Counted from the stretch's first letter, positions 16,231-29,963 are shown. The stretch: DNA of 32,000 nt from Kineococcus radiotolerans SRS30216 = ATCC BAA-149 (GCF_000017305.1 NC_009664.2:3960001-3992000); one strand, 5' to 3'. Numbers and translations are program-made. Notes: generated by a model from the letters alone, not told the origin.

Positions 16231-16413
16231 GGGGTCTCCTCCGGGATGGTGCTGACCCCAGGAACGTCGGCCAGCCCGTGCCCCACCTGATGCGGTGTCA
16301 CCCGTTGCGCTCAAGCGGCCCACGTCGCGGGCCGTGCGTCCGGGTGCCGGCCGCGTTCGTCCGGCTGGGGGACCACGGTCAAGGTCGGTCCTTCCGCTCC
16401 CGATGGATCCCTG

Positions 16414-16434: not shown

Positions 16435-16472
16435 TGTTGTCGTGTCCTGCCAGGGCGCGCGGAGGGAGCGAG

Positions 16473-17882
16473 ATGGGCAACACCGGTCAGGGCGACCAGT
16501 CCCCCGTGGGGGCTTACGTCCCGGTGAACATGCGAGGGGGAGCGGACGGCGTGCCGTCGGCACGTCCGAACATCACCGCTCTCCTCAAGCAGCTCGAGAC
16601 CGACCAGGCCGTGATCGCCGCCCCGTCGCCCGAGCCCGTCGGGATGCGGCTGGAGCCGCTCGGGGAGGAGGCGCCGCGGCACTCCTCCGCGCCCGTGGCG
16701 CCGGTCCTGGCCGCCCCCGTGGTGGCGCCGGTCGTGGCCCGGCTGGCGCCTGAACCCGCCGTCCAGGCTACGGAGACGGCAGCGCTCGTCACCACCGGCG
16801 GCGACCACGACCGCGGCCCCACCGTCCGGGTCAATGATGTGCTGATCCGCGCGCTGGAGCTCGGGGCCTCCGACATCCACCTCACCGTGGGGACCCACCC
16901 CTCCGCCCGGGTCTCCGGCGAGGTCGAGCCCATGGACGAGTTCCCCCGGATGACCACCAACGTGCTGCAGGAGATGATCTACGCGATCCTCACGCAGAAG
17001 CAGCGCGAGACCTTCGAGGCCAACCTCGAGCTCGACTTCGCCTACCAGGTCCCCGGGCACTCGCGCTTCCGCGTCAACGTGTACCGCCAGCGCGAGTCGA
17101 CCGGTGCGGCCTTCCGCCAGATCCCCTTCGAGATCAAACCCCTCGAGGACCTCGGCGTCCCGCCGGTCGTGGGGTCCTTCGCGGGTCTGCAGCGCGGGTT
17201 CGTCCTGGTCACCGGTCCCACCGGTTCGGGCAAGTCGACAACGCTCGCCTCGGTCGTCGACCTCGCGAACCGGACCCGCAGGGACCACATCATGACCGTG
17301 GAGGACCCCATCGAGTTCCTGCACCGGCACAAGAGCTGCATCGTCAACCAGCGCGAGGTCGGGGAGGACACCAAGTCCTTCGCCAACGCACTGAAGAGCG
17401 TGCTGCGCCAGGACCCCGACATCATCCTCGTCGGCGAGATGCGCGACCTCGAGACGATCTCGGTGGCGCTGACCGCCGCCGAGACCGGTCACCTCGTCTT
17501 CGGCACCCTGCACACCTCCAGCGCCGCCTCCACGATCGACCGCGTCATCGACGTCTTCCCGCCCCACCAGCAGACCCAGATCCGCGCCCAGTTCGCCGGC
17601 GCGATCCAGGGCATCGTCTGCCAGACCCTCTGCAAGCGCGCCGACGGCCGTGGTCGCGTCGTCGCCACCGAGGTCCTCGTCGCCACCCCCGCCATCCGCA
17701 ACCTCATCCGCGAGGGCAAGACCCACCAGATCGGCACCGCCATGCAGGCCGGCGCCCAGTTCGGGATGCACACCCTCGACCAGCACCTGGCCGAGCTCGT
17801 CAAGACCCGCCAGATCACGTTCGAACACGGCCTGGAGAAGTGCCACGCCGCCGACGAGTTCCGCCGCCTCACCGGGCGCTGA
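16473..17882 (+). CDS. pilT: PilT-family type IV pilus ATPase with about 115-aa Pro/Ala/Val-rich N-terminal extension
   Basis: ATG at 16473 follows GGAGGGAG at 16461-16468. Core motifs: LELGASDIHL, Walker A GPTGSGKSTT, Asp box HIMTVEDPIEF, Walker B DIILVGEMRD, His box TGHLVFGTLHTSSA, and the PilT-specific PAIRNLIREGK. There is no GspE/PilB-type N-terminal domain and no C-terminal tetracysteine motif. By my count about 90 percent of codons in the extension end in G/C, which supports it being translated. Confidence 0.9.
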   Translation: MGNTGQGDQSPVGAYVPVNMRGGADGVPSARPNITALLKQLETDQAVIAAPSPEPVGMRLEPLGEEAPRHSSAPVAPVLAAPVVAPVVARLAPEPAVQATETAALVTTGGDHDRGPTVRVNDVLIRALELGASDIHLTVGTHPSARVSGEVEPMDEFPRMTTNVLQEMIYAILTQKQRETFEANLELDFAYQVPGHSRFRVNVYRQRESTGAAFRQIPFEIKPLEDLGVPPVVGSFAGLQRGFVLVTGPTGSGKSTTLASVVDLANRTRRDHIMTVEDPIEFLHRHKSCIVNQREVGEDTKSFANALKSVLRQDPDIILVGEMRDLETISVALTAAETGHLVFGTLHTSSAASTIDRVIDVFPPHQQTQIRAQFAGAIQGIVCQTLCKRADGRGRVVATEVLVATPAIRNLIREGKTHQIGTAMQAGAQFGMHTLDQHLAELVKTRQITFEHGLEKCHAADEFRRLTGR

Positions 17883-17896
17883 GAGAGGACAGATCG

Positions 17897-19150
17897 ATGG
17901 CAACCGCTATCAAGGCGCCGGCACGTTCGGGGCACACGACCTTCGAGTACTCCGCCCGCGACAGGTCGGGCAAGCTCGTCAAGGGCGTCCTCGAGGCCAG
18001 CGACAGCAGTGCGGTCCTGGGCCGCCTCAAGAGCCAAGGCCTCGCCCCGGTCTCGGTGGAGGCGTCCAAGGCGGGCAAGGGCATGCAGATGGAGATCGCG
18101 CTACCCGGGTCCAACAGGGTCGGGCTGAAGGATCTCGCACTGATGTCGCGTCAGTTCGCGACGATGGTCTCCTCCGGGCTCTCGCTCATCAGGGCGCTCT
18201 CGATCCTGGCCGAGCAGGCGGAGAGCAAGAAGCTCGCGGCCACCCTCGGAGAGGTACGTGCCGAGGTCGAGACGGGTGCTTCCCTCTCCACGACCTTGGC
18301 GAAGCACGACCGCATCTTCCCCCCGTTGATGATCAACATGATCCGGGCCGGCGAGGTGGGCGGTTTCCTGGACCAGGTGCTGGTCCAGATCGCCGACAAC
18401 TTCGAGTCGGAGGTGAAGCTCAAAGCCAAGGTGAAGTCGGCGATGACCTACCCGGTGGTCGTCTTCATCATCGCCATCCTCGCCGTCGTCGGGATGCTCC
18501 TGTTCATCGTCCCGGTCTTCACCCAGATGTTCTCCGACCTCGGCGGCAAGCTGCCGCTACCGACGCAGATCCTCGTCTACCTCTCCACCGCCATGAAGTG
18601 GGGCGCGCCTTTCGGTGTCGTCGCCCTCGTCGTCGGGTCGATCGTCTGGAACCGTGTCAGGAACAAGGACGAGGTCCGCAACATTGTCGACCCCGTCAAG
18701 CTGAAGATGCCAATTTTCGGCTCGTTGACGCAGAAGATCGCCCTGAGCAGGTTCACTCGGAACCTCGGGACCATGCTGCGTTCTGGTGTTCCCATCCTGC
18801 AGAGCCTGGAGATCGTCGGCAACGCGGCGGGCAACGTGGTCATCAGGCGAGCAGCCATCGACGTCATGGAGAGCGTCCGCTCGGGGCGATCCCTCGCTGG
18901 ACCGCTGGCCGAGCACAAGGTGTTCCCGGCGATGGTCGTGCAGATGATGAGCGTCGGGGAGGACACCGGTGCCCTCGACTCCATGCTGCATAAGATCTCC
19001 GACTTCTACGACCAGGAGGTCGAGGCCACCACGGACGCCCTCACCAGCCTGATCGAGCCGCTGATGATCGCCGTCCTCGGCGGCATCATCGGCTCCATGA
19101 TCATTGCGCTGTACATGCCGATCTTCGGTGTTTTCAACCTCATCAGCTGA
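17897..19150 (+). CDS. pilC: Type IV pilus platform protein PilC (GspF family)
   Basis: ATG at 17897 (MATAIKAP...), 417 aa. It shows the duplicated T2SS-F architecture, with LSRQFATMVSSGLSLIRAL in the first half and FTRNLGTMLRSGVPILQSL in the second, three TM blocks, and the terminal LMIAVLGGIIGSMIIALYMPIF. Confidence 0.92.
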   Translation: MATAIKAPARSGHTTFEYSARDRSGKLVKGVLEASDSSAVLGRLKSQGLAPVSVEASKAGKGMQMEIALPGSNRVGLKDLALMSRQFATMVSSGLSLIRALSILAEQAESKKLAATLGEVRAEVETGASLSTTLAKHDRIFPPLMINMIRAGEVGGFLDQVLVQIADNFESEVKLKAKVKSAMTYPVVVFIIAILAVVGMLLFIVPVFTQMFSDLGGKLPLPTQILVYLSTAMKWGAPFGVVALVVGSIVWNRVRNKDEVRNIVDPVKLKMPIFGSLTQKIALSRFTRNLGTMLRSGVPILQSLEIVGNAAGNVVIRRAAIDVMESVRSGRSLAGPLAEHKVFPAMVVQMMSVGEDTGALDSMLHKISDFYDQEVEATTDALTSLIEPLMIAVLGGIIGSMIIALYMPIFGVFNLIS

Positions 19151-19167
19151 GCACCTCGTCAGGTACC

Positions 19168-19205
19168 GGCACGGCCGGTGAGCGGATCCGCTCACCGGCC
19201 GTGCC
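19168..19205 (+). terminator. 38-nt perfect palindrome (about 16-bp stem around GGATCC) directly after pilC
   Basis: GGCACGGCCGGTGAGCGG AT CCGCTCACCGGCCGTGCC, read directly from the sequence. It begins 17 nt after the pilC stop. There is no U-tract (the following bases are TCTCGTG), which is common for GC-rich actinobacterial terminators. It could instead be an RNA-stability element or a protein-binding site. Confidence 0.55.
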
Positions 19206-19366
19206 TCTCGTGCGTCAGGGGTGTTCGGCCTTCCGGGTGATCGCCTGCACTCGATGCTCAAGCTCGCTGCGACGGCAGCCGAAGTACTGAGTACAAGAGC
19301 CGCCACACCGGACACTCGGTGCGCGAACCGCGAGCGGCTCCAGGTTCTCACGAAGGGGAGCATCGA

Positions 19367-19819
19367 ATGCTCGCTCGCATCCGCAAGTCGATCGAGGACA
19401 AGGACCAGGGCTTCACCCTGATCGAGCTCCTCGTTGTCATGATCATCATCGGCATCCTCGCGGCCATCGCCATCCCGGTCTTCCTGTCGCAGCGCGCCAA
19501 GGCGCGCGAGACCTCGGCGAAGTCCGACGTCTCGGTCATCGGCAAGGAGCTCGCGGCCTACTACGTCGACGGGACCGGCGCCCTCACGGCTGCCGGCAAC
19601 CAGACCAGCGGGTGGACGCTCGCCGGCGGCACGCCCTCCGTGACCGTGGCCAGCGGCAAGCTGAGCCCCGGCAACAAGGTGCTGGTCAGCACCATCACCA
19701 GCCCGACCACCTACTGCGTCATCGTCAAGAGCGGCTTCGCCGCTGACGGTTCCGGTACGTCCACGGACGCCGCGTGGCGCTTCAACCAGGACGGGATCGC
19801 CAAGAGCGAGACCTGCTGA
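19367..19819 (+). CDS. pilA: Type IV pilin, probable major pilin (class III signal peptide)
   Basis: ATG at 19367 after GGGGAG. The leader is MLARIRKSIEDKDQG, then FTLIELLVVMIIIGILAAIAIPVF, giving Gly-1, Phe+1 and Glu+5. 150 aa. Two Cys residues (TYCVIV and the C-terminal SETC) fit a pilin D-region disulfide. It is flanked by hairpins on both sides. Confidence 0.9.
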   Translation: MLARIRKSIEDKDQGFTLIELLVVMIIIGILAAIAIPVFLSQRAKARETSAKSDVSVIGKELAAYYVDGTGALTAAGNQTSGWTLAGGTPSVTVASGKLSPGNKVLVSTITSPTTYCVIVKSGFAADGSGTSTDAAWRFNQDGIAKSETC

Positions 19820-19833
19820 CACGCGTGAAGTGA

Positions 19834-19861
19834 GGAGGGGGCGGCGAATGCCGCCCCCTTC
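19834..19861 (+). terminator. GC-rich hairpin after the major pilin gene
   Basis: GGAGGGGGCGGC GAAT GCCGCCCCCTTC forms a 12-bp stem with one G-U pair and a 4-nt loop, starting 15 nt after the pilin stop. It is followed by TTCGTG. It overlaps a GAGGAGG and an in-frame ATG at 19848, which is an alternative start for the next pilin. Confidence 0.55.
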
Positions 19862-19895
19862 GTGCGCTCTGCCGGACGGCCCACCAGGAGGAACC

Positions 19896-20330
19896 GTGAG
19901 CAAGGACCAGCACGGAGATCACGGGTTCACCCTCGTCGAGCTCCTCGTCGTCATGGTCGTCATCGGGATCCTCGCGGCGATCGCCGTGCCCATCTTCACG
20001 TCACAGCGCGCAGCTGCGCGCGACACGGCGGTCAAGCAGGACGTCACCGCCTTCGGCAAAGAAGTCGCGGCCTACTTCGTGGACGGCACCGGGGTTCTGG
20101 GCGTCCCCGACGCGACCTCCCGGCCGGGGTACCTGGTGCTGACCGACGACGCCAGGCCGAGCTACGTCATCACCGTCAGGTTGAGTGCGGGGACGCGGCT
20201 GGCGGCGCCCCCCGTCGTCCTCGACGCGACGCACTGGTGCGTGGCCCTCACCAATGACGCGGGACGGCAGAAGACCTACAACTACGCCACCAGCGGCGGC
20301 TCCTCGGGACTCGGGTCGGGTCCGTGCTGA
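19896..20330 (+). CDS. Type IV pilin paralog
   Basis: GTG at 19896 follows AGGAGG at 19886-19891. The leader is VSKDQHGDHG, then FTLVELLVVMVVIGILAAIAVPIF. Two Cys residues (HWCVAL and the terminal GPC). An alternative in-frame ATG at 19848 would give a 26-aa leader. Confidence 0.85.
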   Translation: MSKDQHGDHGFTLVELLVVMVVIGILAAIAVPIFTSQRAAARDTAVKQDVTAFGKEVAAYFVDGTGVLGVPDATSRPGYLVLTDDARPSYVITVRLSAGTRLAAPPVVLDATHWCVALTNDAGRQKTYNYATSGGSSGLGSGPC

Positions 20331-20371
20331 ACGCCCACCGCACCACGACGCCGCGATCCCAGGAGACGCAC

Positions 20372-21637
20372 ATGCACGCTGAAGAGGACCTCGAGGCCGG
20401 ATTCTCCCTCTTGGAGACCGTCATCGCGATGGTCATCGCGGGCATCCTCGCTCTCGCGGTCGCCGGCGTCCTGGTGAACGCCATGCGGCTCAGCACGGCC
20501 AACGCGGACCGAACGGTAGCGGCCAACATCGCGGCCGGTGAGATCGAAGCGCTTCGTGCACAACGGGCGATCGACCTGACAGACGGTCGGAGCACCAAGA
20601 ACGCCACCGGCGCGGACGGAACCGTCTACTCGGTGACGACCGAGACGGCACTCCTGCAGAGCAGCAGCGACGACTCGGTGTGCAGCGCTTCGGGCAACGG
20701 CCGCATCGCTTTCAAGCGGTTGCGCGTCATCGTCGACTGGGCTAATCGCGGAACGACGCAGCCGGTCCAGATCGACACCACCAAGGCCCTGGGGGTCGGT
20801 GCCGGCGGCTTGGACGCCCGGAGAGGGGTCATCGCCATCGCGGTCAAGGGCGGCAGCAACCAGGCAGTGGCCGGGATCCCCGTGAACCTCAACCCTTCGG
20901 GCTTGACGGTGACCACGGGGGCCGACGGGTGCGCGGTGTTCCCGAACCTGGTGACCACGTCCAGCTACACGGCGTCGATGTCCGTGCCCGGCTACGTCGG
21001 TACCGCAGCCACCCAGACCGTGACGACCAACCCCATCGGCGTCTTCGCCAACCAGGTCACCCGGCTCACCGTCCGGTACGACCGGGGCGGTTCGATCCGG
21101 CTCGCAGCAGATGCACCTGCCGGTTCAGCCGTGCCGAATAACCTCACCGCCACCGTGAAGTACAACAGCTGGCCCACCAAGCAGTTGTCCGCCTGCACCG
21201 GGAGCAACACGCCGTGCTTGGCCGGAGGGGTGGTCAGCGGACTCTTCCCGGATTCGGCGAGCACGTACTCGATGTGGGCCGGCACCTGTGATCTGGCCGC
21301 TCCGGTCTCCCCGGCCACAGCTGACGCGGACTTCGTCGATGTCGACGCGGTGAAGGACCTCGACGTTCCGCTCGGTGCAGCGGTCGTCAAGGTGAAGAAC
21401 GGTGCTGACGTCGTCCAGCCCGGCGCCACGCTGTACGTGAGACCGGCACCGGCCAACAACGGCGGATGCCTGGGGGCGGAGTCTCAGTACACGTTCGTGA
21501 CGGCGGCCACGGGCGTCGCGGTCGTGGCCCTCCCTCCCGGACCGTGGCAGCTCTCCACCAGACCGGACTTCAGTTCGCCGTCCGCGGTGACGATCACTGC
21601 ACGACAGACGACGGCGGAGACGGTGGTGCGGAGATGA
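20372..21637 (+). CDS. Large (421 aa) PilV-like minor pilin carrying two beta-sandwich (carboxypeptidase-regulatory/Cna-B-like) modules
   Basis: ATG at 20372 after AGGAGA. The leader is MHAEEDLEAG, then FSLLETVIAMVIAGILALAV (Glu+5 present). The segment GIPVNLNPSGLTVTTGADGCAVFPNLVTTSSYTASMSVPGYV fits the G-x-PV...T-D-x-DG-x-F-x-L...Y...GY pattern of CarboxypepD_reg-like domains. A second similar module lies near the C-terminus (TGVAVVALPPGPWQLS). Confidence 0.78.
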   Translation: MHAEEDLEAGFSLLETVIAMVIAGILALAVAGVLVNAMRLSTANADRTVAANIAAGEIEALRAQRAIDLTDGRSTKNATGADGTVYSVTTETALLQSSSDDSVCSASGNGRIAFKRLRVIVDWANRGTTQPVQIDTTKALGVGAGGLDARRGVIAIAVKGGSNQAVAGIPVNLNPSGLTVTTGADGCAVFPNLVTTSSYTASMSVPGYVGTAATQTVTTNPIGVFANQVTRLTVRYDRGGSIRLAADAPAGSAVPNNLTATVKYNSWPTKQLSACTGSNTPCLAGGVVSGLFPDSASTYSMWAGTCDLAAPVSPATADADFVDVDAVKDLDVPLGAAVVKVKNGADVVQPGATLYVRPAPANNGGCLGAESQYTFVTAATGVAVVALPPGPWQLSTRPDFSSPSAVTITARQTTAETVVRR

Positions 21638-22395
21638 TGCGTGTGTGGCAGCGACGTGATGCCGGGATCACCTTGGTGGAGCTCCTGGTGGGGATGTCCA
21701 TCACCGGTCTGGTGCTGGCGATGCTGGCTGCTGTGACGATCGGTTCGATGAGATCCACCTCCAAGGTGAGCAGCAAGAACGACGTCAACAACGACGCGCG
21801 AACCGCAGTCTCGACCATGACCCAGGCTCTGCGGGTCGCACAGCCGATCCTCCTGGTGGATGGCGGTGGTAATCCGGTCAAGATCAACGGGAGATCCGTG
21901 AACCAGGCGTTGGAGGTGGCCACCTCCGCGTCTCTGACCTTCTACGCCAGCATGGCTGCCAGCGTGCCGAGTCCCGCCATCGCCGCCGACCCCCCGCCGA
22001 CACGTGTGACCTACGCGTACAACACCAGCCGCAGGTGCCTCGCGGAGACGACCGTTCCGGGTACCCCGGCGATGAACGCCGCCAACCAGCGCTACTACCG
22101 GTTCACCGCCGCACCCACCACCAGATGTCTCGCGTTCGGCACGGTCAACGTGGACGGTAGTGCCTTGTTCAGCTACTCGACTCTGCCCGAAGCGACGGCG
22201 AGCATGACGGCTCAGTACGCGTCGCCGACGGCCGTGTCCGCCGCGGGCGCTGGAATCGCCGCCGCACAACTGGCATCGGTTCGCCAGGTCAACATCCACC
22301 TGGTCCTCAGTGCTGTCAGCGGGGCAGCCAGCTCCACCACGGGTGTGAACTCGTCCGTCACCCTCGTCAACACCCTCGCCAAAGGAAGCCGCTGA
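21634..22395 (+). CDS. PilW-like minor pilin (prepilin-type N-terminal cleavage/methylation domain)
   Basis: ATG at 21634 overlaps the upstream stop (ATGA). The leader is MMRVWQRRDAG, then ITLVELLVGMSITGLVLAMLAAV (Glu+5 present). 253 aa. Confidence 0.75.
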   Translation: MMRVWQRRDAGITLVELLVGMSITGLVLAMLAAVTIGSMRSTSKVSSKNDVNNDARTAVSTMTQALRVAQPILLVDGGGNPVKINGRSVNQALEVATSASLTFYASMAASVPSPAIAADPPPTRVTYAYNTSRRCLAETTVPGTPAMNAANQRYYRFTAAPTTRCLAFGTVNVDGSALFSYSTLPEATASMTAQYASPTAVSAAGAGIAAAQLASVRQVNIHLVLSAVSGAASSTTGVNSSVTLVNTLAKGSR

Positions 22396-24188: not shown

Positions 24189-24976
24189 CCGGTTTGGCCG
24201 TTGCGTGCGGAGTGGTCGGTGTCCTGGTCGGATCCTTCCTCAACGTCGTGGTGCACCGAGTGCCGTCGGGTGAGTCGGTGGTGGCTCCTGCCAGCCGCTG
24301 TCCTGTGTGCGGACACGCGATCCGGCGTCGTGACAACGTGCCGATCCTGTCCTGGTTGTTCTTGCGGGGACGGTGCCGGGACTGCGGCGCACCCGTCAGC
24401 GTCCGCTACCCCCTCGTCGAGGGGGGGACGGGACTGGTGTTCGCCGTGGTCGCCCTGCGCGTTGGACCCGTTGAAGCCCTGCCGGCTTACCTGTACCTGG
24501 CGGCTTTGGCCGTCGCCCTGGCGTTGATCGACGTGGACGTCCACCGACTGCCCGACGCGATCGTCAAGCCGGCCTACCCCGTCTCGCTGCTGCTCCTGGT
24601 CACCGCAACCGCCTTGACCGGGGAGTGGAGTCGATACGTTCACGGCCTGATCGGCGGTGCCGGGCTCCTGCTGCTGTACTTCCTGCTTTACCAGCTGTGG
24701 CCGGGTGGCATGGGGTTCGGCGACGTCAAGCTCGCCGGTGTTCTCGGCCTGTACCTTGGGTGGTGGGGGTGGGAAGCGCTCGTCGTGGGCGCCTTCGCGG
24801 CCTTCCTCCTCGGCGGCATCGTCGGCGTGGGTGTGCTGCTCACGCGTCGGGGCGGCCGCAAGAGCCGCATACCCTTCGGGCCCTTCATGCTCGCCGGCGC
24901 CTGGCTGGCGCTCCTCTTCGCGCAGCCCGTCGTCGACTGGTACCTCTCGCTCTTCGGCATCACGCCATCCGCGTGA
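24185..24976 (+). CDS. pilD: Prepilin peptidase / N-methyltransferase (peptidase A24)
   Basis: GTG at 24185 overlaps the upstream stop (GTGA). Motifs: N-terminal four-Cys motif CPVCGHAI...CRDCGAPV, catalytic Asp regions ALIDVDVHRLPD and GMGFGDVKLAGVLG, and multiple TM segments. Confidence 0.92.
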   Translation: MTGLAVACGVVGVLVGSFLNVVVHRVPSGESVVAPASRCPVCGHAIRRRDNVPILSWLFLRGRCRDCGAPVSVRYPLVEGGTGLVFAVVALRVGPVEALPAYLYLAALAVALALIDVDVHRLPDAIVKPAYPVSLLLLVTATALTGEWSRYVHGLIGGAGLLLLYFLLYQLWPGGMGFGDVKLAGVLGLYLGWWGWEALVVGAFAAFLLGGIVGVGVLLTRRGGRKSRIPFGPFMLAGAWLALLFAQPVVDWYLSLFGITPSA

Positions 24977-25090
24977 CCCCGGCGGAATCGACGACTCGAC
25001 GCTCAAGGCGGTCTCGATCGGCTCCGATGATCTCAGTGAACATCTCGAAGGATCCAGCCTGGAACAGGCTCACAACCACAAGGAGGCGAC

Positions 25091-26137
25091 GTGCCCGGAC
25101 GAACCGCTATCGGGCTCGACATCGGTACGTCGGGTGTGCGCGCCGCAGAACTGTCGTACGGGCGCGACGGCATCACGCTTGAGAAGTTCGGGCAGGTGGC
25201 CCTGCCCGAGGGCGCCGTCCGAGACGGTGAGGTCGTCGAGCGCGCCGTGGTGGCCGACGCCATCCGGGCACTGTGGAAGGGGAGCGGGTTCTCCGGCCGG
25301 AAGGTCTCCCTGGGGGTCGCCAACCAGCGCGTCGTCGTCCGGCAGGTCGACCTCCCGTGGATGTCGACCGCAGAGTTGAAGGCTTCCCTGCCCCTGCACG
25401 TGCAGGACTACCTGCCGATGCCGGTCGCTGACGCCATCCTCGACTTCCACGTCACAGAAGAGCTGCAGGACGGCGAAGCCCGCGGGCTGCGCGGGCTGCT
25501 GGTCGCCGCTGCTCGTGACATGGTGATGTCGAACGTCGGTGCGGTCCAGGCTGCCGGGCTGCGCTCGGTCTCGGTCGACCTCACGTCCTTCGCCGTCCTG
25601 CGCAGCGTCGGCAGGCCGCAGTCCGAAGTGGCGACCGAAGCCTTGCTCGACATCGGGGCGCGCGTGTCCAACCTGGTGATCCACTCTGCGGGTCAACCAC
25701 GCTTCGTCCGTGTCCTCCTCTCTGGGGGGCAGGACGTCACGGATGCGATCGCGGAACGGATCGGAGTGCCCTCAGCATTCGCCGAGGCGGTGAAGCGGGG
25801 TTCCGCGGCCGACTTGAACGACACGGACGGTCACCTGGCTCAGAGCGCCATCGACCTCATGCTGGAGGTCTTCGTCGATGAGATCCGCAGCTCGCTCGAC
25901 TACTACGGTGCATCCACCCCCCAGTTCCCCGTTGAGCGCATCGTCGTATCCGGCGGGGGTTCGATGCTCACCGGCATCGTCGCCAAGCTCGAGGCGATCA
26001 CCCGCCGCCCCGTGGTTCTGGGGAACCCCATCTCGGCCCTCCACATCGGTCGGACCGGCCTCGACCCCGATCAGCTGCTGACGGTTCAGCCGCTCGCCGC
26101 CGTGCCGGTCGGTCTCGCCCTCGGAGGGATCTCATGA
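25091..26137 (+). CDS. pilM: Type IV pilus assembly protein PilM (actin-like ATPase fold)
   Basis: GTG at 25091 after AAGGAGG. Motifs: IGLDIGTSGVRAAEL (phosphate-1), LLDIGARVSNLVI, and RIVVSGGGSML near the C-terminus. Confidence 0.9.
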   Translation: MPGRTAIGLDIGTSGVRAAELSYGRDGITLEKFGQVALPEGAVRDGEVVERAVVADAIRALWKGSGFSGRKVSLGVANQRVVVRQVDLPWMSTAELKASLPLHVQDYLPMPVADAILDFHVTEELQDGEARGLRGLLVAAARDMVMSNVGAVQAAGLRSVSVDLTSFAVLRSVGRPQSEVATEALLDIGARVSNLVIHSAGQPRFVRVLLSGGQDVTDAIAERIGVPSAFAEAVKRGSAADLNDTDGHLAQSAIDLMLEVFVDEIRSSLDYYGASTPQFPVERIVVSGGGSMLTGIVAKLEAITRRPVVLGNPISALHIGRTGLDPDQLLTVQPLAAVPVGLALGGIS

Positions 26138-26787
26138 GCTTCCAGACCTTGGAGGCGGTCGCGACACGTACCGCCGTCGTGCGGGTGAACCTCCTCCCCC
26201 CCGAGTTCGAGGAGGCGCGAAGAGCTCGTCGACTGCAGATCGGCCTCGGGGCCTGTCTGATCACCGTCGTGGCGGCGGCCGCGGGGGCCTACGGCGTCAC
26301 CGCGGGGCACGTCGCTGATGCGCAGTCCGCCCTCGAAGCCGAGCAGTCACGAACCGCCGGCCTCCAGGCGGCTCAAGCTCCCTACGCCGAGGTGCCCAAG
26401 GTCGAAGCGCAGCTGCGGGACGCTCAGGCCGTCGCCGAGTCGGTGGCTGCTCACGACATTCCGTGGTACAGCTACGTCGATCAGCTGGCCACCAACGCCC
26501 CTGCCGAGCTGTCCCTGACCTCGTTGACCTTCGCCGTCAACGACACCAGTGCGGGCACGAGCGCCACCGGCACCGACCCCCTGGCTGTGACCGGTGTGGG
26601 AACACTGTCGGTGACGGGGCAGACGAAGTCCCAGGACAAGGTGGCGGGGTGGCTGGAGTCAATCGGGACCATCGGGGGACTCGCCAACCCCACGCTCACC
26701 AACAGCGCGTACGACGCGAGCTCGGGCGTCGTCACCTTCACGTCGGGGGCGACGGTCACCGAGGCCGCCCTGTTGACCGAGCAGTGA
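26134..26787 (+). CDS. pilN: Type IV pilus assembly protein PilN
   Basis: ATG at 26134 overlaps the pilM stop (ATGA). It has the conserved N-terminal VNLLPPE motif (the PilM-binding INLLP type), followed by the TM segment IGLGACLITVVAAAAGAYGV and a coiled-coil region. Confidence 0.82.
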   Translation: MSFQTLEAVATRTAVVRVNLLPPEFEEARRARRLQIGLGACLITVVAAAAGAYGVTAGHVADAQSALEAEQSRTAGLQAAQAPYAEVPKVEAQLRDAQAVAESVAAHDIPWYSYVDQLATNAPAELSLTSLTFAVNDTSAGTSATGTDPLAVTGVGTLSVTGQTKSQDKVAGWLESIGTIGGLANPTLTNSAYDASSGVVTFTSGATVTEAALLTEQ

Positions 26788-26815
26788 GCCGAGACAGGAC
26801 AGGAGGTCCGACGAC

Positions 26816-27475
26816 ATGAGCACATCCAGGAACACCGTCTTGATCGCCGGCACCGGCGCTCTCGCGCTGCTCGTGCTGGTAGCCAGCTACTTCCTCCTCG
26901 TGGCGCCCAAGCGCGCCGAGGCCGCTGACCTGGCCACCCAGAGGGTCTACGCGAAGGAGAAGAACGCCGGGATCGAGCAGCAGACCCGGCAGTTGCAGTC
27001 CCAGTTCGAGAGCATCGGCGACAAGCGGGCTCAGCTCGCGGCCATCCGCTCGACCCTTCCAGCCGCGGCGGACGTCCCGGCGCTCCTGCGCCAGCTCGAA
27101 GGGTACGCGAACACCGCGGGTGTGGTGTTGACCGGCGTCACGCCCGGCACCCCTGAAGTCTTCGGGTCCGCCACGGACGCTGCGACGGCACAGGCTTCCG
27201 GGCCCCAGGTCGTGGACATCCCCCTGACGATCACCACCTCCGGCTCGTTCTCCCAGACCGAGCTGTTCATCAAGTCCACGCAGGCGGACATGCAGCGGTT
27301 CTTCCTCGTCGAGAACCTGGCCCTGAACGCCGGTGACGCTTCGACGAGCGGGGTGGTGTCCACGACCCTGACCGGCAAGATCTTCGTCCTGCAAGCCGAT
27401 GCGGTGACGCCGAGCGAGTCCACCACCCAGTCCGCGGGGACCACCGCGGTGCCCACGGGAGCGAGTGCCCAATGA
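26816..27475 (+). CDS. pilO: Type IV pilus assembly protein PilO-like
   Basis: ATG at 26816 after AGGAGG at 26801-26806. It has an N-terminal TM (VLIAGTGALALLVLVASYFLLV), a coiled-coil region, and then LPAAADVPALLRQLEGYANTAGVVLTGVTPG, typical of PilO cores. It sits directly after pilN. Confidence 0.75.
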   Translation: MSTSRNTVLIAGTGALALLVLVASYFLLVAPKRAEAADLATQRVYAKEKNAGIEQQTRQLQSQFESIGDKRAQLAAIRSTLPAAADVPALLRQLEGYANTAGVVLTGVTPGTPEVFGSATDAATAQASGPQVVDIPLTITTSGSFSQTELFIKSTQADMQRFFLVENLALNAGDASTSGVVSTTLTGKIFVLQADAVTPSESTTQSAGTTAVPTGASAQ

Positions 27476-28536
27476 GCGAGCAGTTGTCCGACGTGGATGC
27501 CGAGGCGAGAACTCGCGTCATCGACGGCGCGGTGCTCCGCAAATTGCTCGTCGGTGTCGCCGGCGCTGCGGTGATCGGCGGAGGTGCTCTCGGTTTCCTG
27601 TGGCTGAGCAGCGTGCCGGGCGCCGATGCGGAAGCGAGCGCGCTCACGGGTGTCCCCAGCGTTCCGAGCGCCGACGCGACCCCGCCACGCCCGGCCGGTC
27701 CGATCGGTTTCAGCGTGGGCGGGAGGGACATCTTCGCCGCCACCGTCGCGCCGTCCGTGAACTCCGACCTGCCGGTCGAGGGGGTTTCCGGGTCGTCCGC
27801 GGTCATCCCCACGTCCTCCACCCCCAGCGTCGTCGTGACGGCCGTGCCCACCGCGGTGATCCCTCGCGCAGCGTCCTCCGCGGGGAACGTCGCTGGTGGT
27901 GGGACGATCAGCACGAGTGCTCCCAGTGCTCCCAGCGTTTCAGCGGTGACGAGTCCAGTCGCCGCCGTCCCGGTTCCCGGCCCGTCCCGTTCCACGGCAC
28001 CCGCCTGGGAAGCGCCCGCGGTGGGGTTCGTCACCGGGAACGCCGATTACGGCGTCTTCGATCTCGACGGGAAGCGGGTGACGGTCCTGACGGGTCAGCT
28101 CATCTACCCGTTGTCCGTCCGCTACCAAGGGGTCGTCGTGGTCGAGACCCCAACCCCCACCCCCACCCCCACGCCCACGTCGACCGCGAAAGACTCCTCG
28201 GTGCTCGGCAAGTTCACCTCGGAGAACAATCCGGCGACGGGTTGGCTCGTCCCGTCGAACCTCGAAAAGCCGACGCAGTTGCCCGCGGCCGCACTCGGCA
28301 AGGTCTCCGGTCAAGTGCGCCTCAACGGCGTCCTGCGTGACCAGTACTGGGTTCGCGTCGACCGGCAGGACGACGTCCTGATGACGGCGGGAACGGCTGT
28401 GGGGACGACCGGACTCACGCTCACGGGTGCCAGCGACAAGCGGGTTCCGTACGCCGGCGCCATCTTCACGGACGGCGTGGGCAACGTCTACTTCGGCTCG
28501 ATGGGTGAAAGGGAGTCCGACGGTGTTCTCTACTGA
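27472..28536 (+). CDS. Single-pass membrane protein of unknown function in the PilP position (Ser/Pro/Thr/Val-rich linker, TP repeat, beta-rich C-terminus)
   Basis: ATG at 27472 overlaps the pilO stop (ATGA). It has one TM (LLVGVAGAAVIGGGALGFLWL), a GGRDIFA motif reminiscent of the RDPF motif of PilP proteins, a long low-complexity region, and ETPTPTPTPTPTST. I do not recognise a family for it. Confidence 0.6.
   Translation: MSEQLSDVDAEARTRVIDGAVLRKLLVGVAGAAVIGGGALGFLWLSSVPGADAEASALTGVPSVPSADATPPRPAGPIGFSVGGRDIFAATVAPSVNSDLPVEGVSGSSAVIPTSSTPSVVVTAVPTAVIPRAASSAGNVAGGGTISTSAPSAPSVSAVTSPVAAVPVPGPSRSTAPAWEAPAVGFVTGNADYGVFDLDGKRVTVLTGQLIYPLSVRYQGVVVVETPTPTPTPTPTSTAKDSSVLGKFTSENNPATGWLVPSNLEKPTQLPAAALGKVSGQVRLNGVLRDQYWVRVDRQDDVLMTAGTAVGTTGLTLTGASDKRVPYAGAIFTDGVGNVYFGSMGERESDGVLY
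28147..28179 (+). repeat. In-frame ACC-CCN hexanucleotide (Thr-Pro) tandem repeat
   Basis: acc cca acc ccc acc ccc acc ccc acg ccc acg, read directly from the sequence. It encodes the (TP)n linker inside the 27472-28536 gene. Confidence 0.8.
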
Positions 28537-29950
28537 CAACACGCGACGTGGTCGCCGGTCCGTGGTGGCGCTGGTGCTGGCCGGTGCGGCGGTCCTCACG
28601 GCCGGCGGGTCCGCCGCCGCAGGGACCCCCGTGACCGCCCACCGCACCTACGGGGCCGACCGGTACGCCACGGCCGCCTACCTCGAGAACTACGCCTCCC
28701 GCGACACCGCCTACATCGTCACGGGTGAGAAGTTCGCGGACGGTGTCACGGCCGGCGCGCTTGCCGGGCAGCCGGGATCCAACCTCTTCCTGACGTCGCG
28801 CGGACAGCTGCCCGACGCCGTGCGCAAGGTCATCGGCTACTACCGCAACGTCGTGGTGGTCGGTGGTGCCGATGTCGTCTCCGCCGATGTCGTGACGTGG
28901 TTGCAGCAGAACACCCGGGCGCGCATCACCCGGGTGGAGGGCAGGGACCGTTACGAAACGGCAACCCGCTTGTCCGCGACCGCGTTCTCGCCGGGTGTGT
29001 CCAACGTGCTCGTGGCCACGGGGCTCGACTACGCGGACGCTCTCTCCGCCTCCGCCGTCGCGGCGACCACAGGCGTACCCGTCCTGACCGTTCCCGGCAC
29101 GTCCATCCCCGAAAGCACCCGTCTGGAGCTGCTGCGCCTGGCCCCGCAGCGGATCACCGTCCTCGGCGGCGAGGCATCGGTGAGCCGCGACGTGGCCGTC
29201 GACCTCCAGCAGTTCACCGGGGGGCCGGTCGAGCGCATCTACGGCGATGACCGCTACCAGACCGCCGTCGCGGTCAGCAAGCGGTTCTTCGGGCCAGGGG
29301 TCCCGTTCGTGCAGTTGGCTTCAGGGACGAGCTGGCCCGACGCCATCGCCGCGGGTGCCAAGGCCGGCAGGAACGCCTCGCCGCTCCTGCTGACCCCGCG
29401 CTCCTGCGTCCCCCAGTTCGTGAACCTGGAGATCGAACGGTTGCGCACCCGCGATCTCCAGGCGGTGGGTGGGGACGCCTCGTACTCCCAGGCCGCGGCC
29501 AAGCGCACGTCGTGCGAGGCGGGCCCGAAAACCTACCTGGACGAGCTGGCCGCGCCGACGGGCAACGCGAGGTTCCTCGGGGGCAACGTCACGATGGCGG
29601 GGGTCTTCTACCCGCGCACCGTGGCGTTCTCGACGTACGCCCCGACGAACTCCTCGCAGGAGCTCCCCAACGGGGAGTACCGGACCTGGAGCCTCGGCGC
29701 GAAGCGTTCACGCTTCACCACGGTCGTCGGCATCGCCGATGGCACGACGTCGGGCCTGCGGTCCAGGGTCCAGGTCTACGGCGATGAGCGCCCCCTGGGG
29801 ACCTACGAGGTGTCCGTCGGCAACCCGGCTGTGATCGACCTGGACGTCCGCGGGGTGGACAACCTCAAGGTGGTGACGACGTCGTCCGCGCGGTCAGCGT
29901 CCGACGAAGACGGCGCGACAGTCTTCCTGGGTGACGCCGCCGTCAACTGA
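28523..29950 (+). CDS. Secreted protein with three cell-wall-binding-repeat-2 (CWB2) modules and a C-terminal NPCBM-like carbohydrate-binding domain
   Basis: GTG at 28523 (AAGGGAG upstream) overlaps the preceding gene by 14 nt. The signal peptide is VFSTDNTRRGRRSVVALVLAGAAVLTAGGSAAAG. Three repeats begin GADRYATAAYL, GRDRYETATRLS and GDDRYQTAVAVS, each followed by ...GG..VVS-type ends, which is the CWB2 pattern. The C-terminal YLDELAAPTGN...FTTVVGIADG...VQVYGD...LDVRGVDNLKVV...FLGDAAV fits the NPCBM/NEW2 pattern. Confidence 0.78.
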   Translation: MFSTDNTRRGRRSVVALVLAGAAVLTAGGSAAAGTPVTAHRTYGADRYATAAYLENYASRDTAYIVTGEKFADGVTAGALAGQPGSNLFLTSRGQLPDAVRKVIGYYRNVVVVGGADVVSADVVTWLQQNTRARITRVEGRDRYETATRLSATAFSPGVSNVLVATGLDYADALSASAVAATTGVPVLTVPGTSIPESTRLELLRLAPQRITVLGGEASVSRDVAVDLQQFTGGPVERIYGDDRYQTAVAVSKRFFGPGVPFVQLASGTSWPDAIAAGAKAGRNASPLLLTPRSCVPQFVNLEIERLRTRDLQAVGGDASYSQAAAKRTSCEAGPKTYLDELAAPTGNARFLGGNVTMAGVFYPRTVAFSTYAPTNSSQELPNGEYRTWSLGAKRSRFTTVVGIADGTTSGLRSRVQVYGDERPLGTYEVSVGNPAVIDLDVRGVDNLKVVTTSSARSASDEDGATVFLGDAAVN

Positions 29951-29963
29951 CGCTCACCACGAC

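What the first reader, a model, noticed from the sequence alone, without database searches (positions are those of the whole stretch)
16473..29950. Type IVa-like pilus machine in a high-GC actinobacterium with only a PilT-type motor, no PilB and no secretin, ending in wall-binding proteins
Thirteen co-oriented genes are present: pilT-like, pilC, two pilins, PilV-, PilW- and PilX-like proteins, pilD, pilM, pilN, pilO, an unknown single-pass membrane protein, and a CWB2/NPCBM protein. Many are coupled by overlapping stop and start codons (21634/21637, 22393-22397, 24185/24188, 26134/26137, 27472/27475, 28523/28536).

To my knowledge, the experimentally studied pili of Actinobacteria are sortase pili and Tad/Flp pili. 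A PilMNO-type T4a-like apparatus in this phylum is essentially uncharacterised.

Two features do not fit the standard model. First, the only ATPase carries PilT hallmarks (AIRNLIRE, no GspE N-domain, no tetracysteine), so the locus encodes no extension motor. Second, the positions held by PilP and PilQ in diderm bacteria are taken by a novel single-pass membrane protein and a secreted cell-wall-binding protein.

The locus could build a retractile pilus, or a short pseudopilus that crosses the thick wall. Its function (adhesion, motility, DNA uptake or secretion) is open.
Basis: partly seen in the sequence, partly recalled or inferred. Interest (0 to 1): 0.78.

Follow-up and report, generated by a model that had tools for sequence, protein, structure and literature searches.

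The report
Kineococcus type IV pilus cluster lacking pilB
This is the type IVa pilus gene cluster of Kineococcus radiotolerans, a member of a cluster type common in Actinobacteria, and it is unusual only because this genus has lost the neighbouring pilus-extension motor gene (pilB) while keeping the rest of the machine intact and apparently in use.

Summary
The 13 co-oriented genes (16473-29950) are real. The window is the Kineococcus radiotolerans SRS30216 chromosome. HMMs confirm a PilT-family ATPase (TIGR01420, 481 bits; PilB model far below cut-off), PilC, four prepilins, a weak PilX_N-like protein, PilD, PilM, PilN (just below the Pfam cut-off), PilO, an orphan single-pass protein and a CWB2x3-NPCBM protein.

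The machine is not a new kind. At least 599 related loci exist across Actinomycetota, set inside the aro operon. In 63 of 66 related loci with enough upstream DNA, a canonical MshEN-type pilB lies directly upstream of pilT. The only exceptions are Kineococcus species.

PilT, PilC, PilD and PilM are under purifying selection. Three FliA/WhiG1-type promoter motifs sit before pilT, pilA1 and pilM. The machine therefore looks live and is probably expressed with flagella in zoospores.

I could not test whether a PilB-type ATPase is encoded elsewhere in the genome. Lack of a secretin is normal for monoderms. The last two genes were found only in Kineococcus-like loci and have no known role.

The parts
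16378..16406 (+). FliA/WhiG1-type promoter-like motif before pilT: GTCA-N17-CCCGATGG
   Evidence: The pattern TCAAG-N15-17-CCGAW occurs 3 times in the window against 0.11 expected, and 0 of 100 shuffles reach 3. A match sits at the same position in L002 and L005 and in many relatives. The published WhiG1 consensus is CTCA-N16-17-GCCGA (PMC12871210).
16473..17882 (+). pilT: PilT-family ATPase of 469 aa, with a 119-aa low-complexity N-terminal extension followed by the PilT core
   Evidence: TIGR01420 scores 481 bits against a 319 cut-off, while the PilB and GspE models fall far below theirs. Pfam finds T2SSE only, with no MshEN domain. Walker A (GPTGSGKST), Walker B, the His box and AIRNLIRE are present in the translation. 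The start at 16473 is supported by conservation of the N-terminus in L002 and L003.
17897..19150 (+). pilC platform protein
   Evidence: Two T2SSF domains, 217 bits. It aligns full length to the PilC models of NCBIfam, though below their equivalog cut-offs.
19168..19205 (+). Perfect 17-bp hairpin after pilC, terminator-like but without a U tract
   Evidence: Minimum free energy -43.7 kcal/mol, z = -6.1 against shuffles. Similar hairpins occupy the same position in other Kineococcus loci.
19257..19285 (+). FliA/WhiG1-type promoter-like motif before the major pilin gene: CTCA-N17-GCCGAAGT, an exact match to the published consensus
   Evidence: The CTCAAG and CCGA blocks are invariant in six Kineococcus species. 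The same motif precedes pilA in Cellulomonas, Sanguibacter, Kineosporiaceae and Frankiales loci.
19297..19340 (+). Conserved stem-loop in the pilA1 5' leader (GAGCCGC...GCGGCTC)
   Evidence: The consensus fold on six Kineococcus leaders gives mostly invariant pairs with little covariation. No Rfam family matches.
19367..19819 (+). pilA1: probable major type IVa prepilin, with leader ...DKDQG|FTLIELLVV and a C-terminal Cys pair
   Evidence: N_methyl 40 bits; TIGR02532; translation.
19896..20330 (+). pilA2: second pilin, with leader ...GDHG|FTLVELLVV
   Evidence: N_methyl 37.6 bits.
20372..21637 (+). PilV-like minor pilin, 421 aa
   Evidence: N_methyl 21.3 bits. TIGR02523 scores 37.7 bits, below its cut-off. 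Orthologues occupy the same position in L002, L013, L019 and L064.
21634..22395 (+). PilW-like minor pilin, 253 aa
   Evidence: N_methyl 27.9 bits. Its start overlaps the preceding stop codon.
22395..24188 (+). Large PilX_N/GspK-like protein (597 aa) with no Glu5; a possible tip component
   Evidence: PilX_N scores 17.7 bits, below its cut-off. Homologues at 28-35% identity occupy the same position in many loci.
24185..24976 (+). pilD prepilin peptidase
   Evidence: A24_N_bact 118 bits and Peptidase_A24 52 bits.
25002..25030 (+). FliA/WhiG1-type promoter-like motif before pilM: CTCA-N17-TCCGATGA
   Evidence: Matches lie at the same position in L002, L004, L005, L013, L016, L019, L023, L024 and L028.
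25091..26137 (+). pilM
   Evidence: PilM_2 157 bits.
26134..26787 (+). pilN
   Evidence: PilN scores 20.0 bits, just under the 22.8 cut-off. The assignment rests also on the N-terminal VNLLPPE motif, a single transmembrane segment and the conserved position.
26816..27475 (+). pilO
   Evidence: PilO 30.8 bits.
27472..28536 (+). Orphan single-pass membrane protein (354 aa): transmembrane helix, long Ser/Pro/Ala/Thr-rich linker, small beta segment, (TP)n linker and a C-terminal domain
   Evidence: No Pfam, NCBIfam or PDB match. Only 3 homologues were found among 5.8 billion proteins, and in both homologues whose context was looked up the gene lies directly after pilO. The AF2 model is unusable, with mean pLDDT 31.
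28523..29950 (+). Secreted protein with three CW_binding_2 repeats and an NPCBM domain; its start overlaps the end of the preceding gene
   Evidence: CW_binding_2 157 bits over 3 stretches and NPCBM 30 bits. An orthologue with the same architecture occupies the same position in Kineococcus sp. GCM10028916.
13983..14843 (+). aroE: left border of the conserved insertion site. In relatives pilB follows it.
   Evidence: Shikimate dehydrogenase domains. The order mltG-aroE-pilB-pilT is seen in many related loci.
15040..16323 (-). Divergent LGFP-repeat gene occupying the place where pilB lies in relatives. It is not part of the machine.
   Evidence: LGFP x6, 263 bits. It is absent at this site from L002-L005, where L002 has an unrelated gene and L003-L005 have none.
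30062..31770 (+). aroK and aroB: right border of the cluster
   Evidence: SKI and DHQ_synthase domains.

Best explanation
The locus is the K. radiotolerans copy of a type IVa pilus cluster that is widespread in Actinomycetota and sits inside the aro operon (aroE-[pil genes]-aroC/aroK-aroB). It encodes pilins, the prepilin peptidase PilD, the platform PilC, the PilM-PilN-PilO alignment complex and the retraction ATPase PilT. There are probably three transcription units (pilT-pilC; pilA1 to pilD; pilM to the CWB2 gene), each preceded by a FliA/WhiG1-type promoter motif. The pilus is therefore most likely made together with flagella in the motile zoospore stage and used for surface attachment and retraction. 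This last point is an inference by analogy with Actinoplanes zoospores.

The ancestral cluster began with a canonical MshEN-PilB extension ATPase gene directly upstream of pilT. The genus Kineococcus has deleted it cleanly. The rest of the cluster is still under purifying selection, so the machine is still used. The most conservative inference is that filament extension is powered by a GspE/PilB-type ATPase encoded elsewhere in the genome. That step is inferred, not shown.

The two terminal genes (orphan membrane protein and CWB2-NPCBM protein) were found only in Kineococcus-like loci. They are co-transcribed and translationally coupled with pilMNO. Their role is unknown, and wall anchoring is only a guess.
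For: Identity of the parts. Organism.

Distribution and ancestral order: at least 599 related loci. 63 of 66 loci with at least 2.5 kb upstream carry a full-length PilB directly before pilT, and all exceptions are Kineococcus. The PilB of the Kineosporiaceae MAG (P0001) has an MshEN domain plus T2SSE.

Clean loss: there is no pilB remnant in the window or in L001-L005 at E<=10.

Still functional:
- All ORFs are intact in five species.
- dN/dS is 0.22-0.30 for PilT, 0.23-0.27 for PilC, 0.26-0.33 for PilD and 0.19-0.35 for PilM. The housekeeping neighbours mltG and aroE give 0.37-0.42 and 0.14-0.32.
- The PilT core is not accelerated. Its identity to outgroups is 71-79%, the same as outgroups show among themselves, and only 2 clade-specific changes fall at conserved sites.

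Regulation: three motif matches in the window against 0.11 expected. In related loci there are 84 matches on the cluster strand against 3 on the other, and 44 of them lie directly before pilT, pilA or pilM. The motif fits the published WhiG1 consensus, and pilus clusters are reported targets (PMC12871210). K. radiotolerans has a FliA homologue in its motility island and forms zoospores (PMC2587704).

In relatives pilT has its own promoter motif between pilB and pilT, for example L016 at 9567-9592. Deleting pilB would therefore leave pilT-pilC expression intact.
Against: No PilB-type gene was found for Kineococcus anywhere I could look:
- The window covers 16 kb upstream of the cluster.
- The 10 kb downstream were checked in K. 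radiotolerans, and 10 kb around the orphan gene in Kineococcus sp. GCM10028916.
- None of the 120 best database hits to a Kineosporiaceae PilB is named Kineococcus or lies on the 4.76-Mb chromosome. This is a weak test, because the list stops at 71% identity.

An unlinked pilB has no precedent among the 63 related loci. A simple deletion with no replacement is the more parsimonious genomic event. Expression, pilin processing and filaments have not been shown for this organism.
Confidence: 0.5

Rival explanations
1. Single-motor machine. Kineococcus has no PilB-type ATPase at all, and the PilT-family ATPase alone powers both assembly and retraction of the pilus, as CpaF does for Tad pili.
For: pilB is cleanly deleted in all five Kineococcus genomes where the region upstream of pilT could be examined, yet the other genes stay under purifying selection and keep their promoter motifs. 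No Kineococcus PilB appeared in any search. There are precedents for one ATPase doing both jobs: CpaF (PMC6920026), and PilT being required for extension of the V. cholerae MSHA pilus (PMC9815625).
Against: The Kineococcus PilT core shows no acceleration and only two clade-specific substitutions, M435L and G446R. It keeps the AIRNLIRE retraction hallmark. Its N-terminal extension is a general feature of actinobacterial PilT, not a Kineococcus novelty. To my knowledge no T4aP system is known to assemble without a PilB-type ATPase; in the MSHA case MshE is still needed. Genome-wide absence of PilB was not tested.
Confidence: 0.25
2. The cluster no longer builds an extended retractile pilus. It makes a short pseudopilus or serves a secretion or cell-envelope function across the thick wall, with the CWB2-NPCBM and orphan membrane proteins as wall-associated partners.
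For: No extension ATPase is linked to the cluster. Two wall- and membrane-associated genes found only in Kineococcus-like loci are translationally coupled to pilO.
Against: The locus has a PilT retraction ATPase and PilMNO, which are T4aP hallmarks rather than T2SS or Com hallmarks. The GspE and ComGA models fall far below their cut-offs. The pilins are ordinary T4a type. The gene order is that of pilB-containing relatives. Nothing links CWB2 or NPCBM domains to type IV filaments.
Confidence: 0.12
3. The cluster is an inactive remnant that is decaying after the loss of pilB.
For: Loss of the extension motor would normally inactivate a T4aP system. PilN and PilO evolve fast, with dN/dS of 0.46-0.89. 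GC falls to 64-70% inside the cluster against 73-78% in the flanks.
Against: There are no frameshifts or stop codons in any of the core genes compared (pilT, pilC, pilD, pilM, pilN, pilO) across five species that have diverged to dS of about 0.4-1.0. dN/dS of the core genes equals that of housekeeping neighbours. Promoter motifs and the pilA1 leader are conserved. PilN and PilO are fast-evolving in pilus systems generally (my own knowledge).
Confidence: 0.08
4. It is an ordinary Gram-positive T4P locus whose pilB lies just outside the window, next to the third pilin.
For: A pilin-like gene does start at the window's end, at 31772 on the minus strand.
Against: A K. radiotolerans contig (L084) extends 10 kb past aroK and shows aroB, three pilin-like genes without a prepilin motif, efp, nusB, a bldD-like gene, pyrR, pyrB, pyrC, carA and carB. 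Kineococcus sp. GCM10028916 shows the same order as far as pyrC, where the fetched stretch ends. The 16 kb upstream within the window hold aspS to aroE and no T2SSE gene.
Confidence: 0.02

Closest known systems
Actinobacterial aro-locus T4aP clusters (pilB-pilT-pilC-pilA...pilD-pilM-pilN-pilO) of Cellulomonas, Sanguibacter, Leifsonia, Cryobacterium, Kineosporiaceae, Frankiales, Nitriliruptoria and Thermoleophilia genomes and MAGs. These were seen here and were predicted by Denise et al. 2019 (PMC6668835).
   Same: They share the genomic site after mltG-aroE and the same gene order from pilT to pilO. Identities to the window are 60-86% for PilT, 45-80% for PilC and 35-76% for PilM. The same FliA/WhiG-type motifs precede pilT, pilA and pilM.
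   Different: Every non-Kineococcus locus with enough upstream DNA has a canonical MshEN-PilB directly before pilT, and the window does not. The orphan membrane protein and the CWB2-NPCBM gene after pilO were found only in Kineococcus-like loci.
Zoospore type IV pili of Actinoplanes missouriensis (Kimura et al. 2019, J Bacteriol; known to me only as cited in PMC12871210)
   Same: It is an actinobacterium with flagellated zoospores. According to PMC12871210, type IV pili are needed for adhesion to hydrophobic surfaces and FliA/WhiG-family promoter sites in the cluster were confirmed. K. radiotolerans also forms zoospores and has FliA.
   Different: The paper could not be read here, so the gene content of that cluster, including its ATPases, was not compared. 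No experiments exist for Kineococcus.
Monoderm T4aP of Firmicutes (Streptococcus sanguinis, Clostridium perfringens; review PMC6916266)
   Same: PilMNO, PilC, PilD, PilT and several pilins are present, with no PilP or PilQ and other outer-membrane parts. This is the expected monoderm layout.
   Different: Those systems have an extension ATPase (PilF/PilB) that is essential for piliation. The window's locus has none.
Tad pilus with the bifunctional ATPase CpaF (PMC6920026), and the V. cholerae MSHA pilus, in which PilT also promotes extension (PMC9815625)
   Same: They are precedents for one ATPase acting in both directions, or for PilT helping extension.
   Different: CpaF belongs to the TadA family, not the PilT family; the TadA model scores 49.7 bits against a 373 cut-off here. 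MSHA still requires its extension ATPase MshE. The resemblance is a possible working analogy only, not membership.

Membership tests
Type IVa pilus system (PilMNO type) | Prepilins with a class III signal peptide (G|F/I-x-x-x-E, N-methylation motif) | tested here: met
   Four proteins pass the Pfam N_methyl cut-off, at 40, 37.6, 21.3 and 27.9 bits. The leader and Glu5 are visible in the translations.
Type IVa pilus system (PilMNO type) | Prepilin peptidase (A24) and a PilC platform with two T2SSF domains | tested here: met
   A24_N_bact 118 bits with Peptidase_A24 52 bits; T2SSF 217 bits over 2 stretches.
Type IVa pilus system (PilMNO type) | PilM-PilN-PilO alignment complex | tested here: met
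   PilM_2 157 bits and PilO 30.8 bits. PilN scores 20.0 bits, just below the 22.8 cut-off, but has the NLLP motif, a single transmembrane segment and the conserved position.
Type IVa pilus system (PilMNO type) | Dedicated extension ATPase PilB (MshEN/GspE_N domain, tetracysteine) | tested here: not met
   None is present in the window (16 kb upstream of the cluster), nor in the 10 kb downstream in K. radiotolerans. None lies upstream of pilT in four other Kineococcus species. The whole genome was not searchable with these tools.
Type IVa pilus system (PilMNO type) | PilT retraction ATPase | tested here: met
   TIGR01420 scores 481 bits against a 319 cut-off.
Type IVa pilus system (PilMNO type) | Secretin PilQ with PilP (diderm systems only) | tested here: not met
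   No secretin or PilP domain occurs in any product. This is expected for a monoderm (PMC6916266), so it does not count against membership.
PilT/PilU subfamily of T2SSE ATPases | Full-length match above the curated cut-off; Walker A and B, His box and AIRNLIRE motif; no MshEN domain and no tetracysteine | tested here: met
   The motifs GPTGSGKST, DPDIILVGEMRD, TGHLVFGTLHT and AIRNLIRE are present in the translation. The extra 119-aa N-terminal extension matches no family.
Actinobacterial aro-locus T4aP cluster | Located after mltG-aroE and before aroC/aroK-aroB, with the order pilT-pilC-pilins-pilD-pilM-pilN-pilO | tested here: met
Actinobacterial aro-locus T4aP cluster | pilB immediately upstream of pilT | tested here: not met
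   Present in 63 of 66 related loci. Absent in the window and in all Kineococcus loci.
FliA/WhiG1 (sigma-28 type) regulon | CTCA-N16-17-GCCGA promoter within 200 bp of a start codon (criterion of PMC12871210) | tested here: met
   The pilA1 site is an exact match. The pilM site has one mismatch in the -10 element. The pilT site has one mismatch in each element, so it does not meet the published criterion. The looser pattern is enriched 3 against 0.11 expected and is strand- and position-specific in relatives.
FliA/WhiG1 (sigma-28 type) regulon | Transcription depends on the sigma factor | not testable with these tools
   Needs RNA-seq or transcription start-site mapping in wild type and a fliA mutant.
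Tad/Flp pilus | TadA/CpaF ATPase, TadB and TadC, short Flp pilins | tested here: not met
   The TadA model scores 49.7 bits against a 373 cut-off. The pilins are 144-150 aa and of T4a type. There is a single two-domain PilC.
Com pseudopilus or T2SS | ComGA or GspE ATPase, with no PilT or PilMNO | tested here: not met
   ComGA scores 120 bits against 300 and GspE 150 against 630. PilT and PilMNO are present.
   No family, PDB or usable structure match was found. Homologues were found only in Kineococcus-like loci. Sanguibacter goes straight from pilO to aroC.

The most novel reading that the evidence does not exclude
The genus Kineococcus has no PilB/GspE-type ATPase anywhere in its genomes, and its otherwise complete, selectively maintained type IVa pilus machine is driven in both directions by a single PilT-family ATPase. 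That would be the first T4aP system without a dedicated extension motor.
Probability: 0.25. Interest if true: 0.8.

Novelty: new variant of a known kind. Interest (0 to 1): 0.5.

Why it matters
Type IVa pili are thought to need two antagonistic motors, PilB to extend and PilT to retract. Here a whole genus has deleted the linked pilB from an otherwise conserved cluster and has kept everything else under selection.

If no other PilB exists in these genomes, Kineococcus would be a natural test of whether a PilT-family ATPase can drive assembly. It would also be a tractable system, because the organism is culturable, is a monoderm and has a complete genome. If a PilB is encoded elsewhere, the finding reduces to an ordinary rearrangement.

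Apart from that question, the analysis shows three things. This cluster type is very common in Actinomycetota. It sits in the aro operon. It carries FliA/WhiG-type promoter motifs, which ties pilus production to the motile stage.

Tried and rejected
- **Whole-genome search for PilB.** This was not possible.
- **PilB homologue list.** A search with a Kineosporiaceae PilB listed only the 120 best hits, all at 71% identity or more. None was from Kineococcus, but a Kineococcus orthologue might fall just below that list and a xenologue certainly would. Cluster look-ups of unnamed hits gave no organism names.
- **Third homologous-protein search.** I left it unused, because no query design would bring a hypothetical Kineococcus PilB into the top 120.
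- **Plasmids.** tblastn of PilB against PLSDB was uninformative. The accessions I recalled for the K. radiotolerans plasmids are not held.
- **Looking up the pilin-like gene beyond the window.** aroB gave only short contigs, but aroK gave the needed 10 kb.
- **Upstream extension.** A look-up with the response regulator found nothing, and RarA gave nothing beyond the window.
- **Orphan protein 27472-28536.** The AF2 model has mean pLDDT 31 and is unusable, so no fold search was run. A PDB profile search and Pfam at E<=10 gave nothing.
- **Promoters and RNA.** The generic sigma-70 and terminator scan was uninformative. The classic TAAA-N-GCCGATAA sigma-28 pattern gave 0 matches; the actinobacterial CTCA variant was the right one. 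Rfam found no family in the pilA1 leader of the window.
- **Literature.** The K. radiotolerans genome paper and the copper proteomics paper do not mention pili. The supplements of Denise 2019 and Imam 2011 do not list Kineococcus by name. Kimura 2019 is not held.
- **Idea rejected: the PilT N-terminal extension is a remnant of PilB or compensates for its loss.** It has no similarity to PilB, and comparable extensions occur in relatives that carry PilB.

Full report

Yes. The window is 71-78% G+C outside the cluster and 64-70% inside it. Third-position GC picks out one frame per gene. Independent gene calls on public contigs agree.

Profile searches give these assignments:

| Coordinates | Assignment | Evidence |
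|---|---|---|
| 16473-17882 | PilT/PilU-family ATPase | TIGR01420 481 bits vs cut-off 319, residues 120-461; PilB model 150 vs 676; GspE 150 vs 630; ComGA 120 vs 300; TadA 50 vs 373; no MshEN/GspE_N domain; AIRNLIRE, Walker A/B and His box present |
| 17897-19150 | PilC | two T2SSF domains |
| 19367-19819, 19896-20330 | T4a pilins | N_methyl |
| 20372-21637, 21634-22395 | PilV- and PilW-like prepilins | N_methyl |
| 22395-24188 | 597-aa PilX_N-like protein | weak, below cut-off |
| 24185-24976 | PilD | A24_N_bact + Peptidase_A24 |
| 25091-26137 | PilM | PilM_2 |
| 26134-26787 | PilN | just below cut-off, with the NLLP motif |
| 26816-27475 | PilO | PilO |
| 27472-28536 | single-pass protein | no family |
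| 28523-29950 | secreted protein | three CW_binding_2 repeats + NPCBM |

Exact-sequence look-up identifies the window as the chromosome of Kineococcus radiotolerans SRS30216 (PilM = ABS04483, CWB2 protein = ABS04479, aroB = ABS04477).

**2. Surroundings**

Upstream of the cluster lie aspS, a two-component system, rarA, a PemK-like gene, a GH65 hydrolase, alaS, ruvX, mltG, aroE and a divergent LGFP-repeat gene. Downstream lie aroK and aroB. The cluster is therefore set inside the conserved alaS-ruvX-mltG-aroE ... aroK-aroB housekeeping region.

**3. Related loci change the picture**

The 80 best all come from Actinomycetota: Kineococcus, Cellulomonas, Sanguibacter, Leifsonia, Cryobacterium, Frankiales, Nitriliruptoria, Thermoleophilia and many MAGs.
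- Mapping the window's proteins onto them shows one conserved layout: mltG-aroE-[second ATPase]-pilT-pilC-pilA...pilD-pilM-pilN-pilO. In Sanguibacter, aroC follows directly.
- The second ATPase is a canonical PilB. It has an N-terminal MshEN domain, the T2SSE core and the CxxC...CxxC tetracysteine.
- Of 66 loci with at least 2.5 kb upstream of pilT, 63 have this PilB. The three exceptions are Kineococcus spp. A fourth Kineococcus locus has aroE directly upstream, and it lacks pilB too, as does the window.
- tblastn with PilB against the window and the Kineococcus loci at E<=10 finds no remnant.

A PilMNO-type pilus cluster is thus common in this phylum. The peculiarity is a clean loss of pilB specific to the genus.

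**4.

A K. radiotolerans contig reaching 10 kb past aroK shows aroB, three small minus-strand pilin-like genes, efp, nusB, a bldD-like gene, pyrR, pyrB, pyrC, carA and carB. Kineococcus sp. GCM10028916 has the same 13-gene cluster followed by the same housekeeping genes as far as pyrC, where the fetched stretch ends. No PilB lies within 16 kb upstream or about 10 kb downstream. The test is not met.

I could not search the rest of the 4.76-Mb genome. The one indirect test was the 120 best database hits to a Kineosporiaceae PilB. None was from Kineococcus. This is weak, because the list ends at 71% identity.

**5. Is the pilB-less cluster alive?**

- All core genes are intact in the five species compared.
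- NG86 dN/dS against four other Kineococcus species is 0.22-0.30 for PilT, 0.23-0.27 for PilC, 0.26-0.33 for PilD and 0.19-0.35 for PilM. The neighbours mltG and aroE give 0.37-0.42 and 0.14-0.32. PilN and PilO are faster, at 0.46-0.89.
- The PilT core is not accelerated. Its identity to outgroups is 71-79%, the same range that outgroups show among themselves. Only two Kineococcus-specific changes fall at otherwise conserved sites, M435L and G446R.
- The 119-aa N-terminal extension is not a Kineococcus novelty. Variable Pro/Ala-rich extensions are common in actinobacterial PilT, and in some MAGs this region is a true MshEN domain.

The sequence therefore points to a machine still in use, with a PilT that looks like an ordinary PilT.

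**6. Regulation**

Aligning the regions upstream of the pilin gene revealed a conserved CTCAAG-N16-(G)CCGA motif.

- The pattern TCAAG-N15-17-CCGAW occurs three times in the 32-kb window. The expectation is 0.11, and 0 of 100 shuffles reach three. All three are on the + strand and each lies before a transcription unit: pilT (16379), pilA1 (19258) and pilM (25003).
- In the related loci there are 84 matches on the cluster strand and 3 on the other. 44 of them lie directly before pilT, pilA or pilM.
- The motif fits the published actinobacterial WhiG1/FliA consensus CTCA-N16-17-GCCGA. The same preprint reports pilus clusters as confirmed targets in Actinoplanes and Rubrobacter, and as predicted targets in Cellulomonadaceae and Sanguibacteraceae (PMC12871210).
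- K. radiotolerans forms flagellated zoospores and has a FliA homologue in its motility island (PMC2587704).
- A perfect 17-bp hairpin (-43.7 kcal/mol, z = -6.1) separates pilC from pilA1.
- In relatives pilT has its own motif between pilB and pilT, so deleting pilB would not silence pilT-pilC.

The inference is that the pilus is co-expressed with flagella in the motile stage. By analogy with Actinoplanes zoospores, it would serve surface attachment.

**7. The last two genes**

The orphan protein has only three detectable homologues among 5.8 billion proteins: a near-identical Logan copy, a 46%-identical protein in Kineococcus sp. GCM10028916, and a 38%-identical protein on a metagenome contig. 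In the last two, whose context was looked up, it lies directly after pilO. It has no family or PDB match, and AlphaFold gave an unusable model with pLDDT 31.

The CWB2-NPCBM protein is conserved in the same position in the second Kineococcus genome.

Other actinobacteria lack both genes. Sanguibacter has nothing between pilO and aroC. Microbacteriaceae have an unrelated polytopic protein. One MAG has a different small single-pass protein.

They are therefore accessory genes found only in Kineococcus-like loci. They are translationally coupled to pilMNO, but nothing shows that they replace PilP or PilQ. Absence of PilP and PilQ is the norm in monoderm T4aP (PMC6916266).

**8. Mechanism and rivals**

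Shown:
- a complete T4aP gene set minus PilB
- loss of the linked pilB, specific to the genus
- purifying selection on the remaining core genes
- conserved sigma-28-type motifs

Inferred:
- the machine builds retractile pili in zoospores
- extension is powered either by an unlinked PilB-type ATPase (most conservative reading, about 0.5) or by PilT itself (about 0.25)

Precedents for the second reading exist only outside this exact setting. CpaF is a bifunctional Tad motor (PMC6920026). PilT promotes extension of the V. cholerae MSHA pilus, but there the extension ATPase MshE is still needed (PMC9815625).

A pseudopilus or secretion role (about 0.12) and decay (about 0.08) fit the data less well. 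The 'PilB just outside the window' scenario is excluded.

**9. Novelty and score**

T4aP clusters in Actinomycetota are known from genome surveys (PMC6668835). According to PMC12871210 they have also been studied experimentally in Actinoplanes. Lack of a secretin is expected. What is new is the variant: a genus-wide, cleanly pilB-less cluster that is still under selection, plus two accessory genes found only in Kineococcus-like loci.

Its importance depends on one simple computation I could not run, a PilB search of the complete Kineococcus genomes.

- Interest: 0.5
- Novelty: new variant of a known kind

Noticed in passing
window 13983-31770; L028 19292-20518: The pilus cluster sits inside the shikimate (aro) gene region: aroE-[pil genes]-aroC/aroK-aroB in Actinomycetota. 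From memory, pilMNOPQ is followed by aroK-aroB in Pseudomonas and Neisseria, which would make this linkage conserved across phyla. Kineococcus has no aroC between the cluster and aroK.
   Followed up: partly
L021 12453-12528: A c-di-GMP-I-GGC riboswitch (RF03167, 66.6 bits against a gathering score of 59) lies in the 5' leader of the major pilin gene of a Frankiales MAG, downstream of the same sigma-28-type promoter motif. Kineococcus has no such riboswitch there.
   Followed up: partly
window 19297-19340; aligned leaders of L002, L003, L004, L005, L082: The pilA1 leader contains a stem-loop (GAGCCGC...GCGGCTC with an inner CACCGG/CCGGTG stem) conserved in six Kineococcus species. Most pairs are invariant, so there is little covariation evidence. 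No Rfam family matches.
   Followed up: partly
L041 9461-11122, L058 3430-5091; also L034, L036-L038, L040, L042: In several deep-branching Actinomycetota MAGs the PilT orthologue, with an AVRNLIRE- or GVRNLIRE-type motif, carries an N-terminal MshEN domain (PF05157, 54-63 bits in the two tested). MshEN is known as the c-di-GMP-binding domain of extension ATPases. These loci also have PilB. The disordered N-terminal extensions of other actinobacterial PilTs may be degenerate remnants of it.
   Followed up: partly
window 31772-32000 (minus strand, partial); L001 11103-11576, 11669-12142, 12221-12577; L082 15221-15685, 15795-16190: After aroB lie three (in another species two) small minus-strand genes. 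Their products have a pilin-like transmembrane helix (for example ...AIPVFLDQR...) and a C-terminal Cys pair, but no G|FTLxE prepilin cleavage motif. They look like non-cleavable, membrane-anchored relatives of pilins.
   Followed up: partly
window 15040-16323 (minus strand); L002 9189-10097 (minus strand): The site vacated by pilB is variable in Kineococcus. K. radiotolerans has a six-repeat LGFP (wall-associated) protein there, strain SYSU DK003 has an unrelated gene, and three other species have nothing between aroE and pilT.
   Followed up: yes
window 16473-17882: Public records give three different starts for this PilT: 382 aa (ABS04491), 443 aa (WP_203417612) and 469 aa (WP_260150983). 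Conservation of the N-terminus (M-x-x-x-G...Y-V-P-x-N-x-R) across Kineococcus species supports the 469-aa form.
   Followed up: yes
window 18001-24000: G+C drops to 64-67% over pilC, the pilins and the minor pilins, against 73-78% in the flanks, although the cluster is ancient and syntenic. This may reflect weaker codon bias or fast evolution of the pilin genes rather than recent transfer.
   Followed up: no
L054 6376-7404: A Naasia MAG carries an extra PilT paralogue (51% identity to the window's PilT) upstream of pilB, giving that locus three ATPase genes.
   Followed up: no
L082 12597-14120: In Kineococcus sp. GCM10028916 the gene after the CWB2 protein is called as a 507-aa product with both shikimate kinase and 3-dehydroquinate synthase domains. 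A separate aroB follows it. This is either an aroK-aroB-like fusion or duplication, or a gene-calling artefact.
   Followed up: no
window 6512-7078: A PemK/MazF-like toxin domain (37.7 bits) lies at the C-terminus of a 188-aa ORF with an Arg/Pro-rich N-terminal part. No adjacent antitoxin gene is obvious.
   Followed up: no
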